The notes beneath the pieces were generated by a model. The model saw only the letters and a program-made list of their open reading frames with translations. It searched no databases and was not told the origin of the DNA. Of a stretch of 62,790 nucleotides of DNA, positions 14,295-50,198 are shown one piece after another (position 1 is the first letter of the stretch; each line of letters begins with the position of its first letter). The position numbers were made by a program, and so were the translations under genes. The DNA is from Alphaproteobacteria bacterium (GTDB lineage: Bacteria > Pseudomonadota > Alphaproteobacteria > JABAAW01), in contig JABACB010000002.1 in the NCBI GenBank assembly GCA_014237925.1, positions 62,028 to 124,817 of the forward strand, in the 5' to 3' direction.

Positions 14295-15610
14295 GGCAAA
14301 ACGGAATCGGTGTTGAAATCGTTGCTTTCGCCAGTCTTGAGAAGTGTTACGGCGAGATCGCCTCCCTTCAACGCGCTGACTTGGAGACCTCGTCGTGACA
14401 AGGCCGCTTTCAACAGGCTTGGCGAGCCGTAGTGGTGTGCAACAACATGCGCCTGTCGTGCAGACAGGCTTCGCAAGCCGTACTCGACGAGCTCCGGCGT
14501 TGCGGAAAGCAAGTTGTCAACAGCTCCCCACTCCTCGCGCGAGCTGAGCTCGGCTACGATACGCAACTTGCGGCGTTTTGCCGCGTGCGCCGTCTGCTCC
14601 TTCCAAAGGCGATTCAGACGATACAACGTCTCGGTGCGCGCTTGCTTCAGCAAGGGGGCAAGCAGGGCGGCATGAGAATCGGCAAGGGGGGCGGCAGGAG
14701 AATCGGCAGGAGAATCGGCAGGAGAATCGGCAGGAGAATCGGCAGGAGAATCGACAGGAGAATCGGCAGAAGAATCGACAGGAGAATCGGCAAGGGGGTC
14801 GGCAAGAGGAGACAACGGACTCTTGCTCGTGCTGTCCATCGCGACCGAGAAAGGAGGCAGCTCAGAAGGAAATCCCCGCTGGTTCAAACGGCCGCTCACG
14901 CTCAAAGTGAGGACGGAAGGATTGTTCTCGTCGGTGTGCGTCGTTGCCAAAAGCACGGCGATTCCTTGCGCACGATACTGTTCGGCGAGCAGAGCAGCCT
15001 GCATCGATTGCAAGTCCTTGACGGCATCGAGCACGGCGAGTCTTTCGGCGGCGTTCGCCTCGATCGGCGTGATCGGCACCAGCCAGCTTTTGTCGGTGCT
15101 TTCCGTTTTCCACGCGCTCAGCCACAGGTTTTGCGGCGGCCACAATTCTGTTGCTCCTGCCCGCACGAAGACGGGAATCAGCACGAACGAGGGCGCGACG
15201 GTAAAGGAGACTTGCAGCCCTTCCTTGTTGAGACGCGCGAAAAGACGCTCCAAGACGAAACGGACGCTGGCTTGTCCTGTAAAATGTTCGCCGTCGAAGT
15301 CTGCGATTTCCACGATCAGCGTCTCGCTGAGCGCGCGAATCTGTTTTTCAGACAAGCTTTGTGCGAGGGCTTGCGCGCGTTCTTCGTCGACGACGAATCG
15401 ATGCAACACCTCTGCGAAGGTTGTGCGCAGGGCGAGACGCGCTGCTTTCTTCTTGCCTTCGTTCTCGCTGGTGGCATTGACATTGACGGGCAGCGAGACG
15501 AACAGCGCTTCTTCGAGGCGATTCTGCTGTGCAAACGCACTTGCAGGCAGAAGAAACGGCGGGAGAAGAAAAAGAAGGAAAGGAAGAAAGCGAAGAAGAC
15601 GAGGCGACAT
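14291..15610 (-). CDS. DUF2066-like exported protein with internal (DSPA)n linker
   Basis: Signal peptide (ASAFAQ), VLIPVF..WPPQNLWLSAW; conserved position between purM and AI-2E/hdaA. Confidence 0.7.
   Translation of the reverse strand: MSPRLLRFLPFLLFLLPPFLLPASAFAQQNRLEEALFVSLPVNVNATSENEGKKKAARLALRTTFAEVLHRFVVDEERAQALAQSLSEKQIRALSETLIVEIADFDGEHFTGQASVRFVLERLFARLNKEGLQVSFTVAPSFVLIPVFVRAGATELWPPQNLWLSAWKTESTDKSWLVPITPIEANAAERLAVLDAVKDLQSMQAALLAEQYRAQGIAVLLATTHTDENNPSVLTLSVSGRLNQRGFPSELPPFSVAMDSTSKSPLSPLADPLADSPVDSSADSPVDSPADSPADSPADSPADSPAAPLADSHAALLAPLLKQARTETLYRLNRLWKEQTAHAAKRRKLRIVAELSSREEWGAVDNLLSATPELVEYGLRSLSARQAHVVAHHYGSPSLLKAALSRRGLQVSALKGGDLAVTLLKTGESNDFNTDSVLP
14669..14800. repeat. 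12-bp tandem repeat x11 (GGCAGGAGAATC), coding (DSPA/DSPV)
   Basis: Units read directly at 12-bp period from 14669. Confidence 0.95.
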
Positions 15611-20607: not shown

Positions 20608-21231
20608 TTAGGCGCGGACAGGGATCTGATCGTCGTCGGGAGGTGTCGAAGAGCCGTTAAAACGCGCGGCGTCGAGACGCGTGGCGTCGAGACGCGTGGC
20701 GTCGAAACGCGCGGCGTCGAGACGCGCGGCGTCGAGAGGAGAGCTGTTATCTGTGGGCGTGAGCGGAACTTTCTTTGTCTGCTCTGCGCGAAAGTGTCGC
20801 AAACGTTCCTTCAATTCCGCATCATTGCCCGCCAAGACGGCGATGGCGAATAGGGCTGCGTTGGCAGCTCCTCCGATGGAAAGGGTTGCGACCGGCACGC
20901 CGCGCGGCATTTGCACAATCGACAGCAGCGCGTCGAGTCCGTCCAAGGCGTCGCTTTTGATCGGCACGCCGAAGACGGGCAGCAGTGTTTCGGCAGCCAG
21001 CATCCCGGGCAGGTGCGCAGCCCCTCCTGCGCCGGCGATGACGGCTCGGATACCGCGTCGTTCGGCGTTGCGCGCGTAATCGCGCAGGCGCTCAGGCGTG
21101 CGATGCGCGGACAAGATGCGTTCTTCGCACGGCACAGAAAATTGTGTCAAAACTTCGACAGCCTCGTTCATCGTGGGATAATCCGAACGACTGCCCATGA
21201 CGACGGCGACTTGGGGTGCTTTGTTTTCCAT
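20608..21231 (-). CDS. purE: N5-CAIR mutase
   Basis: MGSRSD, SAHRTP, AGAGGAAHLPGM, SIVQMPRGVPVAT. Confidence 0.98.
   Translation of the reverse strand: MENKAPQVAVVMGSRSDYPTMNEAVEVLTQFSVPCEERILSAHRTPERLRDYARNAERRGIRAVIAGAGGAAHLPGMLAAETLLPVFGVPIKSDALDGLDALLSIVQMPRGVPVATLSIGGAANAALFAIAVLAGNDAELKERLRHFRAEQTKKVPLTPTDNSSPLDAARLDAARFDATRLDATRLDAARFNGSSTPPDDDQIPVRA
20660..20734. repeat. 15-bp tandem repeat x5 encoding an (LDAAR)n tail of PurE
   Basis: Units A(A/G)ACGCG(C/T)GGCGTCG. Confidence 0.93.
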
Positions 21232-25469: not shown

Positions 25470-25560
25470 GGAAAACCTTTGCGGAAAACTCTTGCGAAAA
25501 ATTCTTGCGGAAAACTTTTGCGAAAAACTCTTGCGAAAAATTCTTGCGAAAAGCTCTTGC
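25470..25560. repeat. Intergenic 13-bp tandem repeat x7 (G(G/A)AAAACTCTTGC)
   Basis: Seven units read at exact 13-bp period. Confidence 0.95.
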
Positions 25561-25580
25561 GCAAGAAAAGAACGCGTCCG

Positions 25581-41426: not shown

Positions 41427-42290
41427 ATGCTCACCCCGAACGCTGTGCAAACATTGGAGCGAACATTGGAGCGAAAGCGATTCGCCGCCCTCGATGCCCT
41501 GTGCTACGGCGGAACGAAGACGCCGCCCTCGTCTCCGCCATCTTCCCTTCTCGTCGTCTTTCACGGCTACGGGGCGACGGCAGAAGACTTGCTCCCTCTT
41601 GCCCCCTCGTTTGCGCACGCCATGCCTGAGACGGTGCAAGTCTTTCTGCAAGCGCCCGAGCCTTGCTTGGCAGGCGGGCTTGCCACAGGACGCGCGTGGT
41701 TTCCGTTGCAGCTCTTGTCTTACGAAGAGATCGTTTCAGGGCTGCAGGCGGTCGAAGGTTCTGTCGCAGAGGCGCTGGACAAGATCGGCAAGCACTATGG
41801 TGTCTCTTCCCGTCGTATCGCTCTGTTCGGCTTCAGTCAGGGCGGCATGGTCGCCTTGCAAGCTGCGTGCAACGCAGGGCATGCCTGGCTTGCAACCGTC
41901 GGCGTGGCGACGCGATTCGTCGAGCCGTGCGATATGAAAACAAGCGCGCCCAACAAAGGCACGCCCCTGATGATGATCCACGGCGAAGACGACACCCTCG
42001 TGCCATTCCAGCAGGGCTTGAAGACAGCCTCCGCACTGCGTGAGAAGGGCTACGACATCGCATGGCTTGCACGACCAGGGATGGGACACGCCATCGACGA
42101 GACGGCATTGGAAAGCGCCTGCAACTTCTTGGGGACGCACGCGCGCAAGACGACAAAGGAGCAGACGCGAAAACAACAGACGCAAACAGAGAAAACACAA
42201 ACAGAGAGGACCCAAACGGAAATGACACGAGCAGAAATGACCCAAACGGAAATGACACAAGCGGAAACGACACGAGCGGAGGTCTTGTGA
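41427..42290 (+). CDS. Phospholipase/carboxylesterase (alpha/beta hydrolase)
   Basis: FHGYG, GFSQGG nucleophile elbow, HGEDD..VP, GMGHAI. Confidence 0.93.
   Translation: MLTPNAVQTLERTLERKRFAALDALCYGGTKTPPSSPPSSLLVVFHGYGATAEDLLPLAPSFAHAMPETVQVFLQAPEPCLAGGLATGRAWFPLQLLSYEEIVSGLQAVEGSVAEALDKIGKHYGVSSRRIALFGFSQGGMVALQAACNAGHAWLATVGVATRFVEPCDMKTSAPNKGTPLMMIHGEDDTLVPFQQGLKTASALREKGYDIAWLARPGMGHAIDETALESACNFLGTHARKTTKEQTRKQQTQTEKTQTERTQTEMTRAEMTQTEMTQAETTRAEVL
42180..42284. repeat. 15-bp tandem repeat x7 encoding a (TQTEM)n tail
   Basis: 15-bp period read directly. Confidence 0.9.
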
Positions 42291-48248: not shown

Positions 48249-48353
48249 TAACGATAGAAACGCAAGATAGCAAGTCTCGTGCGTGTTTGTTGCGTGAGCG
48301 CTATCCAAAAAGCACGAGCGCTAGCGTAGCAGATATATCATGCCGCAACGGAC
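48249..48353. repeat. Direct repeat copy 1 (~105 bp, internally palindromic)
   Basis: Core 48249-48326 matches 49012-49093 at 75/78 nt plus one 4-bp indel; the degenerate tail aligns without gaps. Confidence 0.93.
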
Positions 48354-48473: not shown

Positions 48474-48923
48474 TCATTTCAGGTTGCATTCGTAGAAGAA
48501 GGCATCATCAAGTGATTTGTTTTTTAACTTCATCTTTTTTATTGCGTCTGATGCCATTTTCCAGCAAATTTCCGAGTTTGGATAGACATTAATCTCCTCC
48601 TCTAGCAACACTTTTTCAGCATCTGATTTTGTCGGATCTTCCCAATAAAACTTGGAAAGCACGTGTGGCCTATTAGATTCTCTGATATACCCTTCTTCTA
48701 CTTTATCCTTGCTCATTTGTCCCAATTGGCATTTTACGAGCAGAAACAAAACGATTGCGAAGGGAATCCCGCCAACGACAAAGGTTAAGATGAATTTTGA
48801 CCTGTTTGAAAGAGGCGGTTGGTCTTTGGTAACATCTTTTAGATAATCGGCAATAGATTCTCCGTCTCTTCTTTCCCTAATTTCAGGTTTGGCTTTTTGC
48901 TCGTCTTGATCTTGGTTGCTCAT
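48474..48923 (-). CDS. Low-GC orphan single-pass membrane protein (149 aa)
   Basis: MSNQDQDEQK..FILTFVVGGIPFAIVLFLLVKC..FFYECNLK. Hand counts give 32-37% GC in sampled lines. Confidence 0.8.
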   Translation of the reverse strand: MSNQDQDEQKAKPEIRERRDGESIADYLKDVTKDQPPLSNRSKFILTFVVGGIPFAIVLFLLVKCQLGQMSKDKVEEGYIRESNRPHVLSKFYWEDPTKSDAEKVLLEEEINVYPNSEICWKMASDAIKKMKLKNKSLDDAFFYECNLK

Positions 48924-49011
48924 TATCAAGTCCTTTTTGTTTGGGTTTGATGTTGGGATTGGGGCTGACACTCCAAAGGAGTTGCGAATTCTCGCATGAA
49001 ATTCTCTTTTA

Positions 49012-49120
49012 TAACGATGGAAACGCAAGATAGCAAGTCTCGTGCGTGTTTGTTGCGCGAGCGCGTGCTATCCAAAAAGCACGAGCGCGAGCGCAACATA
49101 TACGCCGTGTGGCAATTGAC
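49012..49120. repeat. Direct repeat copy 2 (~109 bp)
   Basis: See copy 1. Contains GATAGCA/TGCTATC and CTCGTGC/GCACGAG inverted pairs. Confidence 0.93.
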
Positions 49121-49129
49121 ACTGTTGTA

Positions 49130-49436
49130 GCGCGTTTCTGCGAAACGCGCCTGGAGCAGGAAGAGGCTGCGCGCTTGCGCGCAGTTTTTTGCGGGAAAAC
49201 TTCGTCCCCCCTCAGCCCCTCCGCGTGCGCTAGCGCACAGTTTTTTTGCGGGGGAACTTCGTCCCCCCACACCCCCCCGCGTGCGCTAGCGCACGCGACG
49301 CGCGACCGCCTTTTTGTCGCCCAAAGTCCCGTTCCTTGTCTTCTTCCTTGTCCTCCCCCCCGCGCGCGCTGACGCACGCGACGCGCGACCCGCCTTTTTG
49401 TCGCCCAAAGTCCCGTTCCTTGTCTTCTTCCTTGTC
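49130..49436. repeat. Hairpin array: 9-bp stem, 56-bp unit x2, ~83-bp unit x2, 20-bp perfect palindrome
   Basis: GCGCGTTTC-TGC-GAAACGCGC (49130-49150); GGGGGA-ACTTCG-TCCCCC; CGCGTGCGCTAGCGCACGCG (49278-49297). Confidence 0.92.
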
Positions 49437-49448
49437 TTAGGCAAAACT

Positions 49449-50108
49449 TCAAAGGATCGTCTGCTTCGTCTTTTCCCAATCGTCCAAAAACGCCCGCAAG
49501 CCCCTGTCCGTCAAAGGATGCTTATAAAGCGCACGAAAAACCTTCGGCGGCAAGGTCGCCACATGCGCGCCCAAACGCGCCGCCGCCGTGACATGTCCCG
49601 TATGACGCACCGAAGCAACTAACACCTCCGTAGCAAAGTCGTGGGCGCGATAAATATCCAATATCTCCTCAATAAGCTGCAAGCCGTCGTGACCGATGTC
49701 GTCAAGCCTGCCGACAAAAGGCGAGATGAAACTTGCCCCCGCCTTCGCCGCGAGCAAAGCTTGCGCGGACGAGAAGCACAGCGTGACATTGACCGCCGTC
49801 CCCTCACGACTGAGAGCATGACAGCAACGCAAGCCTTCTTCGGTCAGAGGAACCTTGACCGCAACATTCTTCGCAATCGCCGCCAGTGCCTTGCCCTCCT
49901 CCAGCATGCCATCGAAGGAAGTGGCGGTCACCTCGGCGCTCACAGGACCCTCGACGACAGCACACAGCTCCTTGATGCGCTCATGAATCGACGCACCCGA
50001 TTGCGCGATCAACGACGGATTCGTCGTCACCCCATCGATAAGCCCAAGCCCGCTCTTGACGAGCGCAGACACCTCGCTAACATCGGCAGAGTCGATGAAC
50101 AACTTCAT
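49449..50108 (-). CDS. fsa: Transaldolase / fructose-6-phosphate aldolase (TalC/Fsa type)
   Basis: [42 protein letters not shown]. Confidence 0.96.
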
Positions 50109-50198
50109 CCCACGCTTGTGCGACACAGACCGACGAAAGTCAAGCAGATGAAGGTCAAGCAGATGAAGATCGAGCAGATGAAGATCGAGCAGGAGGAG

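What the first reader, a model, noticed from the sequence alone, without database searches (positions are those of the whole stretch)
49130..49436. Array of GC-clamped hairpins that are not terminators
Seen: a perfect 9-bp stem; two 56-bp units with T-tract + GGGGGA-ACTTCG-TCCCCC + C-tract + GCGTGCGCTAGCGCAC; a 20-bp perfect palindrome; then two ~83-bp units. The T-tract lies 5' of the stem on + (A-tract after it on -), which is the wrong geometry for an intrinsic terminator on either strand. Established: G5-loop-C5 stems are typical HUH-endonuclease substrates; the pMV158-family nick loop is TACTACG/A, recalled from memory. The loop here, AACTTCG-T, resembles it loosely. Inference: relic or active nick, stall or REP-like site.
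Basis: partly seen in the sequence, partly recalled or inferred. Interest (0 to 1): 0.65.

Follow-up and report, generated by a model that had tools for sequence, protein, structure and literature searches.

The report
Mosaic hairpin repeat element, not HUH site
The hairpin array is one internally duplicated copy of a repeat element made of small DNA hairpins that is scattered through the genomes of one genus of uncultured small-genome alphaproteobacteria; no nicking (HUH) enzyme of the four families searched accompanies it, and across the family its copies sit where DNA-break-type mutation footprints and foreign defence genes pile up.

Summary

**What it is.** It is not a local oddity. It is one copy of a dispersed element of about 210 nt, with conserved linkers and swappable perfect hairpins. 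The order is H1, AAGAGG, H2, (H3/H4), T-run, the G6/C6 hairpin H5, a C-run, then a tail. In the window the H5 block (56 nt) and the tail (84 nt) are tandemly duplicated.

**Distribution.**
- About 17 H5 cores occur in this MAG and at least 46 in a complete relative.
- Six of 7 genomes of the genus carry the family. None of 54 other alphaproteobacteria does.
- Copies are intergenic, lie in either orientation, and differ in presence between species.

**Enzymes.** Y1 transposase/RAYT, relaxase, Rep_trans and Rep_OBD were not found. SbcD is also absent. AddA and UDG are present.

**DNA-level signs.**
- Stems vary only by double Watson-Crick changes.
- Family-wide, the flanks show a mirror skew over about 2 kb, driven by C>T and C>G on the strand pointing at the element. 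This is independent of gene direction.
- Low-GC defence-type genes lie only on the H1 side. In several loci they sit between two inverted copies.

**Reading.** This is a REP/BIME/NIME-like mosaic repeat that acts as a recurrent break or ssDNA site. That step is inferred, and the footprint at the window's own copy is weak.

The parts
49037..49110 (+). Module X: a long imperfect hairpin (arms 49044-49064 and 49085-49105). It is a family module that usually follows element tails in relatives. A diverged second copy lies near 48250-48330, on the other side of the orphan gene.
   Evidence: I1: 21-nt arms, 81% complementary. (Xf hits beside other copies). (sequence of both copies).
49130..49150 (+). 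H1: perfect 9-bp stem GCGCGTTTC-TGC-GAAACGCGC. It is identical to one of the two commonest H1 variants of the family.
   Evidence: H1 stems vary between copies only by double compensatory changes.
49161..49166 (+). Conserved AAGAGG linker motif between H1 and H2. The family consensus is TTTTGAATAAGAGG; the window reads CTGGAGCAGGAAGAGG.
   Evidence: Invariant columns in alignment A1. 108 linker copies were found in the held sequence.
49167..49184 (+). H2: CTGCGCGC-TT-GCGCGCAG. Its family counterparts are CTACGC...GCGTAG, of variable length.
49185..49190 (+). T6 tract directly 3' of H2. This is terminator-like geometry on the + strand.
49191..49211 (+). H5a: a degenerate copy of the G-run/C-run core hairpin (GCGGGAAAAC-TTC-GTCCCCCC). 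Three G>A changes give A.C on this strand and G.T on the minus strand.
49223..49238 (+). Tail-B palindrome, copy a (GCGTGCGC-TA-GCGCAC), followed by AG and T7 (49241-49247).
49248..49278 (+). H5b core (GCGGGGGAAC-TTC-GTCCCCCC) plus ACACCCCCCC. This is the most conserved block of the family.
   Evidence: Only this block is retained in the distant genus members G004 and G008.
49278..49297 (+). Tail-B palindrome, copy b: a 20-bp perfect palindrome, CGCGTGCGCT/AGCGCACGCG.
   Evidence: (I8).
49171..49294 (+). Tandem duplication of the 56-nt block (palindrome + T-run + H5 + C-run), 2.2 copies.
   Evidence: score 188; D1, D4, D7.
49272..49436 (+). Tandem duplication of the 84-nt tail block (C-run + tail-B palindrome + GACGCGCGACCGCCTTTTTGTCGCC + CAAAGTCCCGTT...), 2.0 copies. 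It ends 12 nt from the tal stop codon.
   Evidence: score 300, 95% matches; D2, D3.
49449..50108 (-). tal (transaldolase / fructose-6-phosphate aldolase family). This gene is on the tail side of the element and is read toward it.
   Evidence: (PF00923, E = 3.6e-59).
48474..48924 (-). Low-GC orphan ORF on the H1 side of the element. It has no Pfam match and is absent from the orthologous spacer of relatives.
   Evidence: no family. (relatives). (GC 0.38-0.42).

Best explanation
**What it is.** The array is one copy, with two internal tandem duplications, of a genus-specific, non-coding mosaic palindromic repeat element. The element is built from conserved short linkers (..GAGTCAGCTT, TTTTGAATAAGAGG, a T-run, ACACCCCCC) that separate interchangeable perfect hairpins, around an almost invariant G6/C6 hairpin (H5). 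Copies are intergenic and occur singly or as head-to-head inverted pairs.

**How it most likely works (inferred).** It acts as DNA, not as RNA and not as an HUH-enzyme substrate. Its hairpin-prone arms, which form a palindrome of about 0.5 kb when paired, make the site prone to breakage or gapping. The ends would be resected 5'->3', probably by AddAB, which is present. The 3'-ended strands would then stay single-stranded for up to about 2 kb on each side, where cytosines deaminate. This leaves a mirror G/T-versus-C/A skew. The same fragility would favour local tandem duplications, like the 56- and 84-nt units here, and the lodging of foreign low-GC genes on the H1 side or at the centre of inverted pairs.

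**Shown.** Family membership, anatomy, distribution, absence of HUH enzymes, DNA-type covariation, the strand-specific C>T/C>G footprint, and the position of the cargo genes.

**Inferred.** That breaks actually occur at the element, which nuclease makes them, and how copies spread.
For: - **Family and anatomy.** Searches find 17 H5 cores in the own genome, many at contig ends. Searches give 60 pattern matches at 57 loci, 54 of them in three alphaproteobacterial MAGs (the other six lie in the Clostridia- and Planctomycetota-labelled MAGs). One search shows that the window aligns module by module.
- **Distribution.** The family is restricted to the genus: 6 of 7 genomes against 0 of 54 others.
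- **Presence/absence.** Orthologous spacers differ between species. The tal-xerC spacer is about 18 nt in G008/G009.
- **Position.** 0 of 59 copies lie inside called genes. Flank types are 23 convergent, 9 divergent and 14+13 co-directional. There is no replichore orientation bias.
- **DNA-type palindromy.** In H1, 5 of 8 pairs covary, with 36 double changes and 0 single or G.U changes. H2 has at least 38 distinct perfect arms.
- **Skew.** GC skew is +0.23 at -500 and -0.42 at +250, decaying over about 2 kb. It is the same for genes read toward or away from the element and strongest at codon position 3 (-0.40 to -0.52), while the genome-wide coding skew is about 0.
- **Substitution direction.** Comparing relatives that have the element with G000 where it lacks it: downstream G>A 1034 versus A>G 213 and G>C 348 versus C>G 115; upstream C>T 812 versus T>C 195 and C>G 298 versus G>C 125.
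- **Repair genes.** AddA is present in all genus genomes and UDG is present in six of the seven.
- **Cargo.** Low-GC DNA lies on the H1 side in about 10 of 41 copies (upstream GC 0.45 or less) and on the tail side in one at most (C333, GC 0.43). It encodes a methylase, HNH nucleases, an AAA_13 protein and similar. In at least 6 loci it is bracketed by inverted copies.
Against: - There is no direct evidence of breaks.
- SbcD, the classical hairpin nuclease subunit, is absent from the whole genus, so the cutting activity is unknown.
- The window's own copy has only a weak footprint: GC skew -0.17 and TA skew -0.21 in the first 500 nt downstream. It shows no G>A excess against G005, which lacks the element here.
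- The substitution test has no outgroup.
- The skew could partly reflect an insertion preference.
- The hairpin+T runs on the top strand and the G.T-compatible changes in H5 on the bottom strand leave room for an RNA-level role.
- No transposase or other propagating enzyme was identified.
Confidence: 0.55

Rival explanations
1. HUH-endonuclease substrate. The G-run/C-run hairpin would be a nick site for a RAYT/IS200-type Y1 transposase, a rolling-circle Rep or a relaxase, making the array a REP/REPIN cluster or a relic origin.
For: The repeats are short, GC-rich, extragenic palindromes in many copies, often as inverted dimers, as in REPINs. H2 often begins with CTAC and ends with GTAG, which recalls GTAG-tagged REPs (PMC3733652).
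Against: Y1_Tnp is absent from G000 and from three relatives, including a complete chromosome. Relaxase, Rep_trans and Rep_OBD are absent from all 7 genus genomes, while the control genomes ring. GTAG is base-paired here rather than an unpaired tag, and the window's H2 has CTGC/GCAG instead. The mutational footprint lies on the strand pointing toward the element, opposite to the strand a 5'-linked HUH nick would displace. IS91-type Y2 and TrwC-type relaxase models were not searched.
Confidence: 0.05
2. RNA-level element. The hairpin+U modules would act as transcription terminators or insulators, or as 3'-UTR stabilisers, when transcribed, as proposed for many REPs. The array would then be a stack of such modules.
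For: Two hairpin+T sites on the + strand in the window, and several per element in the family, all point from H1 toward the tail. Copies are enriched next to gene 3' ends: 39% of spacers are convergent, where a random share would be about 25%. The H5 variants are A.C on top, which is G.U on the bottom strand. In the window the bottom strand is the tal mRNA strand.
Against: Orientation is random relative to flanking genes (14 versus 13). In the window the T-runs are antisense to both neighbouring genes. H1 and H2 vary only through strict Watson-Crick double changes with no G.U. No Rfam family matches. An RNA role does not explain the 2-kb flanking mutation footprint or the cargo position.
Confidence: 0.15
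3. Foldback-type mobile element. Inverted pairs of the element would be the long terminal repeats of a transposon-like unit that carries cargo genes and is moved by an unidentified enzyme acting in trans. The window copy would be a solo arm, and the flank footprint would be a by-product of excision and insertion.
For: Low-GC cargo is bracketed by head-to-head copies in at least 6 loci. At several orthologous sites G000 lacks both the pair and the cargo. Copies are more than 90% identical at dispersed sites. Empty orthologous sites exist.
Against: The cargo is heterogeneous and no protein is shared between cargos. Cargo gene orientation is mixed. No target-site duplication could be read because the spacers are too diverged. 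At one orthologous site G000 has the pair without the cargo, which fits insertion into a pre-existing pair.
Confidence: 0.2
4. Protein-binding or chromosome-structuring site. The near-invariant H5 block would be bound by a host protein (gyrase, an IHF-type or other nucleoid protein, as for BIMEs, or an unknown structure-specific factor), and the other modules would be passengers.
For: H5 plus its C-run is the only block conserved in the most distant genus members. The same 29-nt core occurs three times each in two unrelated high-GC MAGs. The 21-nt hairpin, often with a second C-run, occurs in 13 metagenome contigs.
Against: No candidate protein was found. Palindromic GC-rich 21-mers can recur by chance among the very many hairpins in a database of that size. 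Binding alone does not predict strand-specific C>T over 2 kb.
Confidence: 0.1

Closest known systems
REP / BIME elements (bacterial interspersed mosaic elements) and REPINs, with their RAYT transposases (PMC2817692, PMC3116915, PMC3733652)
   Same: Both are small GC-rich extragenic palindromes in tens to hundreds of copies. They are combined in mosaics with conserved linkers and often form head-to-head dimers. They are enriched between convergent and co-directional genes, and sub-families differ by complementary stem changes.
   Different: No RAYT/Y1 transposase occurs in the clade. There is no unpaired GTAG or CGTC tag. The unit is a fixed ordered string of five to six different hairpins of about 210 nt, not one repeated palindrome. 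Stem variation shows no G.T. Flanking DNA carries a strand-specific C>T footprint.
Neisseria intergenic mosaic elements (NIMEs: RS units between dRS3 inverted repeats); dRS3 is classed as a CGTC-1 REP in PMC3733652. The rest is from my own knowledge.
   Same: Both are mosaic intergenic arrays of swappable modules. They sit at sites where gene content differs between strains, and no dedicated transposase is known for the CGTC class.
   Different: The sequences are unrelated. Here the modules keep a fixed order around the G6/C6 core. Head-to-head pairs enclose the cargo. dRS3 is a known phage integration target, and nothing comparable was seen here.
Long DNA palindromes and inverted repeats as fragile sites. 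SbcCD-dependent breaks in E. coli are from my own knowledge. Inverted repeats and ssDNA-linked clustered mutation around breaks in yeast are described in PMC10164571 and PMC6786661.
   Same: The paired elements form palindromes of about 0.5 kb. The mutation footprint has the polarity expected for 5'->3' resection from a break, and a C>T plus C>G spectrum typical of ssDNA cytosine damage processed by UDG.
   Different: SbcD is absent from the genus. The footprint is an evolutionary, fixed composition skew at dozens of natural loci rather than an induced cluster. No deaminase-like sequence context is seen.
MITEs and foldback elements
   Same: Both are non-coding, present or absent between species, and built on inverted-repeat architecture. 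Some copies enclose passenger genes.
   Different: No parent IS or transposase was found, no target duplication could be shown, and the internal modules are themselves variable palindromes.

Membership tests
REP/REPIN-RAYT system | A RAYT (Y1_Tnp, PF01797) gene in the genome, typically flanked by the REPs | tested here: not met
   There were 0 matches at E<=1 in G000 and in G001-G003, which include a complete 1.9-Mb chromosome. The control genomes ring.
REP/REPIN-RAYT system | An unpaired GTAG (or CGTC) tag at one end of a 20-40-bp palindrome (PMC3733652) | tested here: not met
   H2 often reads CTAC...GTAG, but the tetranucleotides pair with each other. The window's H2 is CTGC...GCAG. No CGTC-type unpaired tag with A/T first stem pairs was seen, but the consensus figures of that paper are not held, so the CGTC comparison is incomplete.
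REP/REPIN-RAYT system | High-copy extragenic palindromes, often as inverted dimers | tested here: met
BIME/NIME-type mosaic repeats (a descriptive class, not a homology family) | Palindromic units combined with conserved linker motifs in variable mosaics, located between genes | tested here: met
   There are nested hairpin insertions and arrays with a 108-nt period (L061).
HUH nick sites (rolling-circle dso, oriT) | A cognate HUH Rep or relaxase encoded in the lineage | tested here: not met
   PF03432, PF02486 and PF01719 are absent from all 7 genus genomes. PF04986 (IS91 Y2) and PF08751 (TrwC) were not searched.
   The H5 loop is T(T/G)C between AC and GT. The resemblance to the recalled motif is loose, and cleavage cannot be assayed here.
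Intrinsic terminators | A GC-rich hairpin followed by a T-run, downstream of a co-oriented gene | tested here: inconclusive
   The geometry is met on the + strand at two sites. No + strand gene lies upstream in the window. Family orientation relative to genes is random. No transcript data were available.
MITE | Terminal inverted repeats, a target-site duplication, and a related autonomous IS | tested here: inconclusive
   Inverted pairs exist. Empty sites exist, but the spacers are too diverged to read a duplication. No parent element was seen, but transposase families were not searched exhaustively.
Known RNA families (Rfam 15) | A match at the gathering threshold | tested here: not met
   Searches gave only sub-threshold generic-hairpin hits.

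The most novel reading that the evidence does not exclude
The H5-centred elements would be natural, recurrent DNA-break sites ('fragile sites'). They would be recognised or processed by a still unidentified structure-specific nuclease in a lineage that lacks SbcCD. Each copy would then hypermutate about 2 kb of neighbouring genes through resection-exposed ssDNA and serve as a landing pad where defence genes are captured at the centre of inverted pairs. That would make them a repeat-driven engine of local mutation and gene acquisition not described in bacteria.
Probability: 0.3. Interest if true: 0.85.

Novelty: new variant of a known kind. Interest (0 to 1): 0.62.

Why it matters
Dispersed palindromic repeats (REP, BIME, NIME) are abundant in bacteria, and their origin and function are still debated. 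Three things make this family unusual.
- No candidate mobilising enzyme was found among the four HUH families searched; other transposase families were not searched.
- Its stems vary like DNA palindromes rather than RNA helices.
- Its copies coincide with a strong, strand-specific cytosine-damage footprint and with the insertion points of foreign defence genes.

If the elements really are recurrent break sites, three consequences follow. They would show that selfish or structural repeats can locally reshape both the mutation rate and the gene content of a small bacterial genome. They would offer natural sequences for testing how hairpins are processed without SbcCD. They would also warn that local GC/AT skew flips in such genomes do not mark replication origins or termini.

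Tried and rejected
- **One-sided, polar process starting at H5.** This was suggested by the 'single' copies. It was rejected because seven strict singles with native upstream DNA show a two-sided skew. The asymmetry came from young low-GC inserts on the H1 side.
- **SbcCD cleavage as the break source.** SbcD is absent from the genus.
- **A sequence-specific deaminase.** No sharp 5' or 3' context was found for C>T or A>G.
- **HNH nuclease cargo as the common nuclease.** Only three loci carry it, at 40% identity, one of them a pseudogene.
- **Integron-like cassettes or attC.** Cargo orientation is mixed and no core-site motif is present.
- **Replication-direction dependence.** Both orientations are interleaved all round the G006 chromosome.
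- **Known RNA family.** Nothing in Rfam.
- **Phage origin.** The 29-nt core is absent from IMG/VR. It was also absent from JGI metagenome contigs; only the 21-nt hairpin was found there.
- **H5-only copies in the distant genus members G004/G008.** There were too few to say whether H5 alone carries the footprint.
- **First gene finder.** A codon-usage gene finder swallowed tal into an antisense priA extension. It was replaced by a dicodon model.

Full report
**Setting.** The finding lies in a 524-nt gap between two minus-strand genes. One is tal (transaldolase/FSA family, 49449-50108; PF00923, E = 3.6e-59). The other is a low-GC orphan ORF (48474-48924) with no Pfam match. A XerC/D-type recombinase gene lies further left, and priA diverges to the right. 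The window comes from contig C222 of a 1.97-Mb, 409-contig MAG.

**Observation.**
- A perfect 9-bp stem at 49130-49150.
- A 56-nt unit repeated 2.2 times (49171-49294).
- A 20-bp perfect palindrome (49278-49297).
- An 84-nt unit repeated 2.0 times (49272-49436).
- The G-run/C-run hairpin occurs twice, against 0 in shuffles.
- The region folds much better than shuffles on either strand (z = -6.3 and -5.4).

One descriptive claim is wrong. Each T-tract directly follows the preceding palindrome on the + strand. The simple scan calls both sites terminator-like, so the geometry is not 'wrong on either strand'. There is simply no + strand gene for them to end.

**It is a dispersed family.**
- The H5 core with its C-run occurs about 17 times in the same MAG, often at contig ends.
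- A degenerate 29-nt pattern found 57 loci among species-representative genomes. Almost all are in three MAGs labelled Alphaproteobacteria, one of them a complete 1.9-Mb chromosome.
- Stacking these copies gives a fixed anatomy: a left end ..GAGTCAGCTT; hairpin H1; TTTTGAATAAGAGG; hairpin H2; hairpin H3 and/or H4; a T-run; H5 (GCGGGGGGAC-TKC-GTCCCCCC); ACACCCCCC; then one of two tails.
- The window aligns to this scheme. H1 is identical to one of the two commonest variants, AAGAGG is conserved, H2 is a short variant, and H3/H4 are missing. The H5 block and the tail-B block are each tandemly duplicated.
- A BLAST search with a canonical 208-nt copy hit 6 of 7 genomes of the genus and none of 54 other alphaproteobacteria. 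In the most distant genus members only the T-run/H5/C-run block is kept.

**Distribution and turnover.**
- With a self-trained dicodon gene finder, none of 59 cores with both flanks called lies in a gene.
- Spacer types are 23 convergent, 9 divergent and 14+13 co-directional. Copies therefore favour gene 3' ends, but their orientation does not follow transcription.
- Orientation does not follow position on the complete chromosome either.
- Orthologous spacers differ between species. The tal-xerC spacer is about 18 nt in G008/G009. G005 has about 150 nt without hairpins. G006 has about 650 nt of elements followed by a different neighbour gene. G007 has a tail palindrome followed by low-GC methylase genes.
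- Several element-bearing spacers of G006 are empty in G000.

**HUH hypothesis.**
- Y1_Tnp/RAYT is absent from G000 and from three relatives.
- Relaxase, Rep_trans and Rep_OBD are absent from all seven genus genomes. The control genomes ring each time.
- The defining REP feature of an unpaired GTAG or CGTC tag (PMC3733652) is not met. GTAG occurs in H2 but is base-paired.
- The element is therefore REP/BIME-like in design but is not a member of the RAYT system.

**DNA or RNA?**
- H1 exists in at least six stem versions, all perfectly complementary. Five of 8 pairs covary, with 36 double changes and no single-sided or G.U change.
- H2 has at least 38 distinct perfect arms next to 108 copies of the conserved linker.
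- Strict Watson-Crick symmetry without wobble intermediates is what DNA palindromes show, whether through templated correction or selection on both strands. It is not what RNA helices show.
- Hairpins are also nested inside the loops of other hairpins.
- Rfam has no match.
- The only wobble-type change is in H5. It is A.C on the top strand and G.T on the bottom strand in 10 of 21 copies, and three such changes occur in the window's H5a.

**Flanks.** I tested this for the present family.
- Oriented on H5, GC skew is +0.23 at -500 and -0.42 at +250, TA skew behaves likewise, and both decay over about 2 kb.
- The skew is the same whether the flanking gene is read toward or away from the element. 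It is strongest at third codon positions (-0.40 to -0.52), while the genome-wide coding-strand skew is about 0.
- Where a relative has the element and G000 has no H5 in the orthologous spacer, substitutions are strongly directional. Downstream: G>A 1034 versus A>G 213, and G>C 348 versus C>G 115. Upstream: C>T 812 versus T>C 195, and C>G 298 versus G>C 125.
- This amounts to C>T and C>G on the strand that runs 5'->3' toward the element. There is no sharp sequence context.
- An apparent one-sidedness disappeared in strict single copies with native upstream DNA.
- This polarity is the one expected for the 3'-ended strand left by 5'->3' resection from a break at the element. It is opposite to the strand displaced from an HUH or relaxase nick.
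- AddA is present in all seven genus genomes and UDG in six of them; SbcD is absent from the genus.
- At the window's own copy the footprint has the right sign but is weak, with no G>A excess against G005.

**Cargo.**
- Low-GC DNA (GC 0.28-0.45) adjoins the H1 side in about 10 of 41 copies; on the tail side only one copy (C333, GC 0.43) falls that low.
- Its ORFs include an N6/N4 DNA methylase, HNH nucleases, an AAA_13 protein and an OmpA/MotB-like protein, and several have no family.
- No protein is shared by all cargos.
- In at least six loci the cargo sits between two head-to-head copies.
- At one orthologous site G000 has the pair without the cargo. At others it has neither.
- In the window, the orphan ORF occupies the same H1-side position.

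**Interpretation.** The array is a copy of a genus-specific mosaic palindromic repeat. The most coherent mechanism is that the element, above all when paired, is a recurrent site of breakage or gapping. Processing of that site would expose flanking ssDNA and favour local duplications and the lodging of foreign DNA. The break itself, the nuclease and the mode of spread are all inferred. The main rivals are an RNA-level terminator or stabiliser role, a foldback-type transposon with unknown enzyme, and a protein-binding site.

**Wider occurrence of the core.** The same 29-nt core occurs three times each in two unrelated high-GC MAGs. The 21-nt hairpin occurs in 13 metagenome contigs, often with a second C-run. 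This may point to a wider recognition motif or may be convergence among GC-rich hairpins. I could not decide between the two.

**Limits.**
- Only 8-kb tiles of the relatives were held.
- The substitution test lacks an outgroup.
- Transposase families other than the four HUH models were not searched.

Noticed in passing
window 1-62790 (for example 14668-14808, 20662-20737, 25471-25561, 42179-42280): There are very many short tandem arrays with periods of 11-15, 18 and 24 nt throughout the window, inside genes and in spacers (102 TRF rows).
   Followed up: no
window 48250-48330 and 49037-49110, around ORF 48474-48924: A low-GC orphan ORF (151 aa, no Pfam match) lies between two diverged direct copies of hairpin module X. 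The ORF is absent from the tal-xerC spacer of relatives.
   Followed up: partly
L015, L033, L048 (CALWKN01, labelled Clostridia) and L017, L047, L062 (JBPOIU01, labelled Planctomycetota): The identical 29-nt core GCGGGGGGACTTCGTCCCCCCGCACCCCC occurs three times in each of two unrelated 65-72% GC MAGs. It sits inside their own hairpin-rich repeats, mostly near contig ends.
   Followed up: partly
L090-L102 (JGI metagenome contigs): The hairpin CGGGGGGAC-TTC-GTCCCCCCG occurs in 13 contigs of diverse GC content. It is usually just after a gene end and is often followed by GACCCCCC or GCCCCCC.
   Followed up: no
genus g1 (G000, G004-G009): SbcD (TIGR00619) is not detectable in any of the seven genomes of the genus, while AddA-type helicase-nuclease is present in all seven and UDG-family glycosylases in six (not in the 64%-complete G008).
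   Followed up: partly
L049:5604-7991 (G007); L060:1277-2011 (G006); G000 C333:86550-87419; L043:6587-7651; L022:1482-4459: Low-GC genes next to or between elements look like defence genes. They include an AAA_13 (PrrC/RloC-like) ATPase, HNH endonucleases at non-orthologous sites in two genomes (40% identical), an N6/N4 methylase with many paralogues in G000, and a large coiled-coil protein followed by an OmpA/MotB-like protein.
   Followed up: partly
L061 (minus orientation), about 460 nt upstream of the H5 core: Four tandem repeats of the left-end/H1/AAGAGG block with a 108-nt period. The front half of the element can therefore form arrays on its own.
   Followed up: no
window 49641-50117: The longest priA ORF (975 aa) runs antisense across tal. 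Domain positions and the dicodon model place the real priA start near 50118, so the overlap is an ORF-calling artefact.
   Followed up: yes
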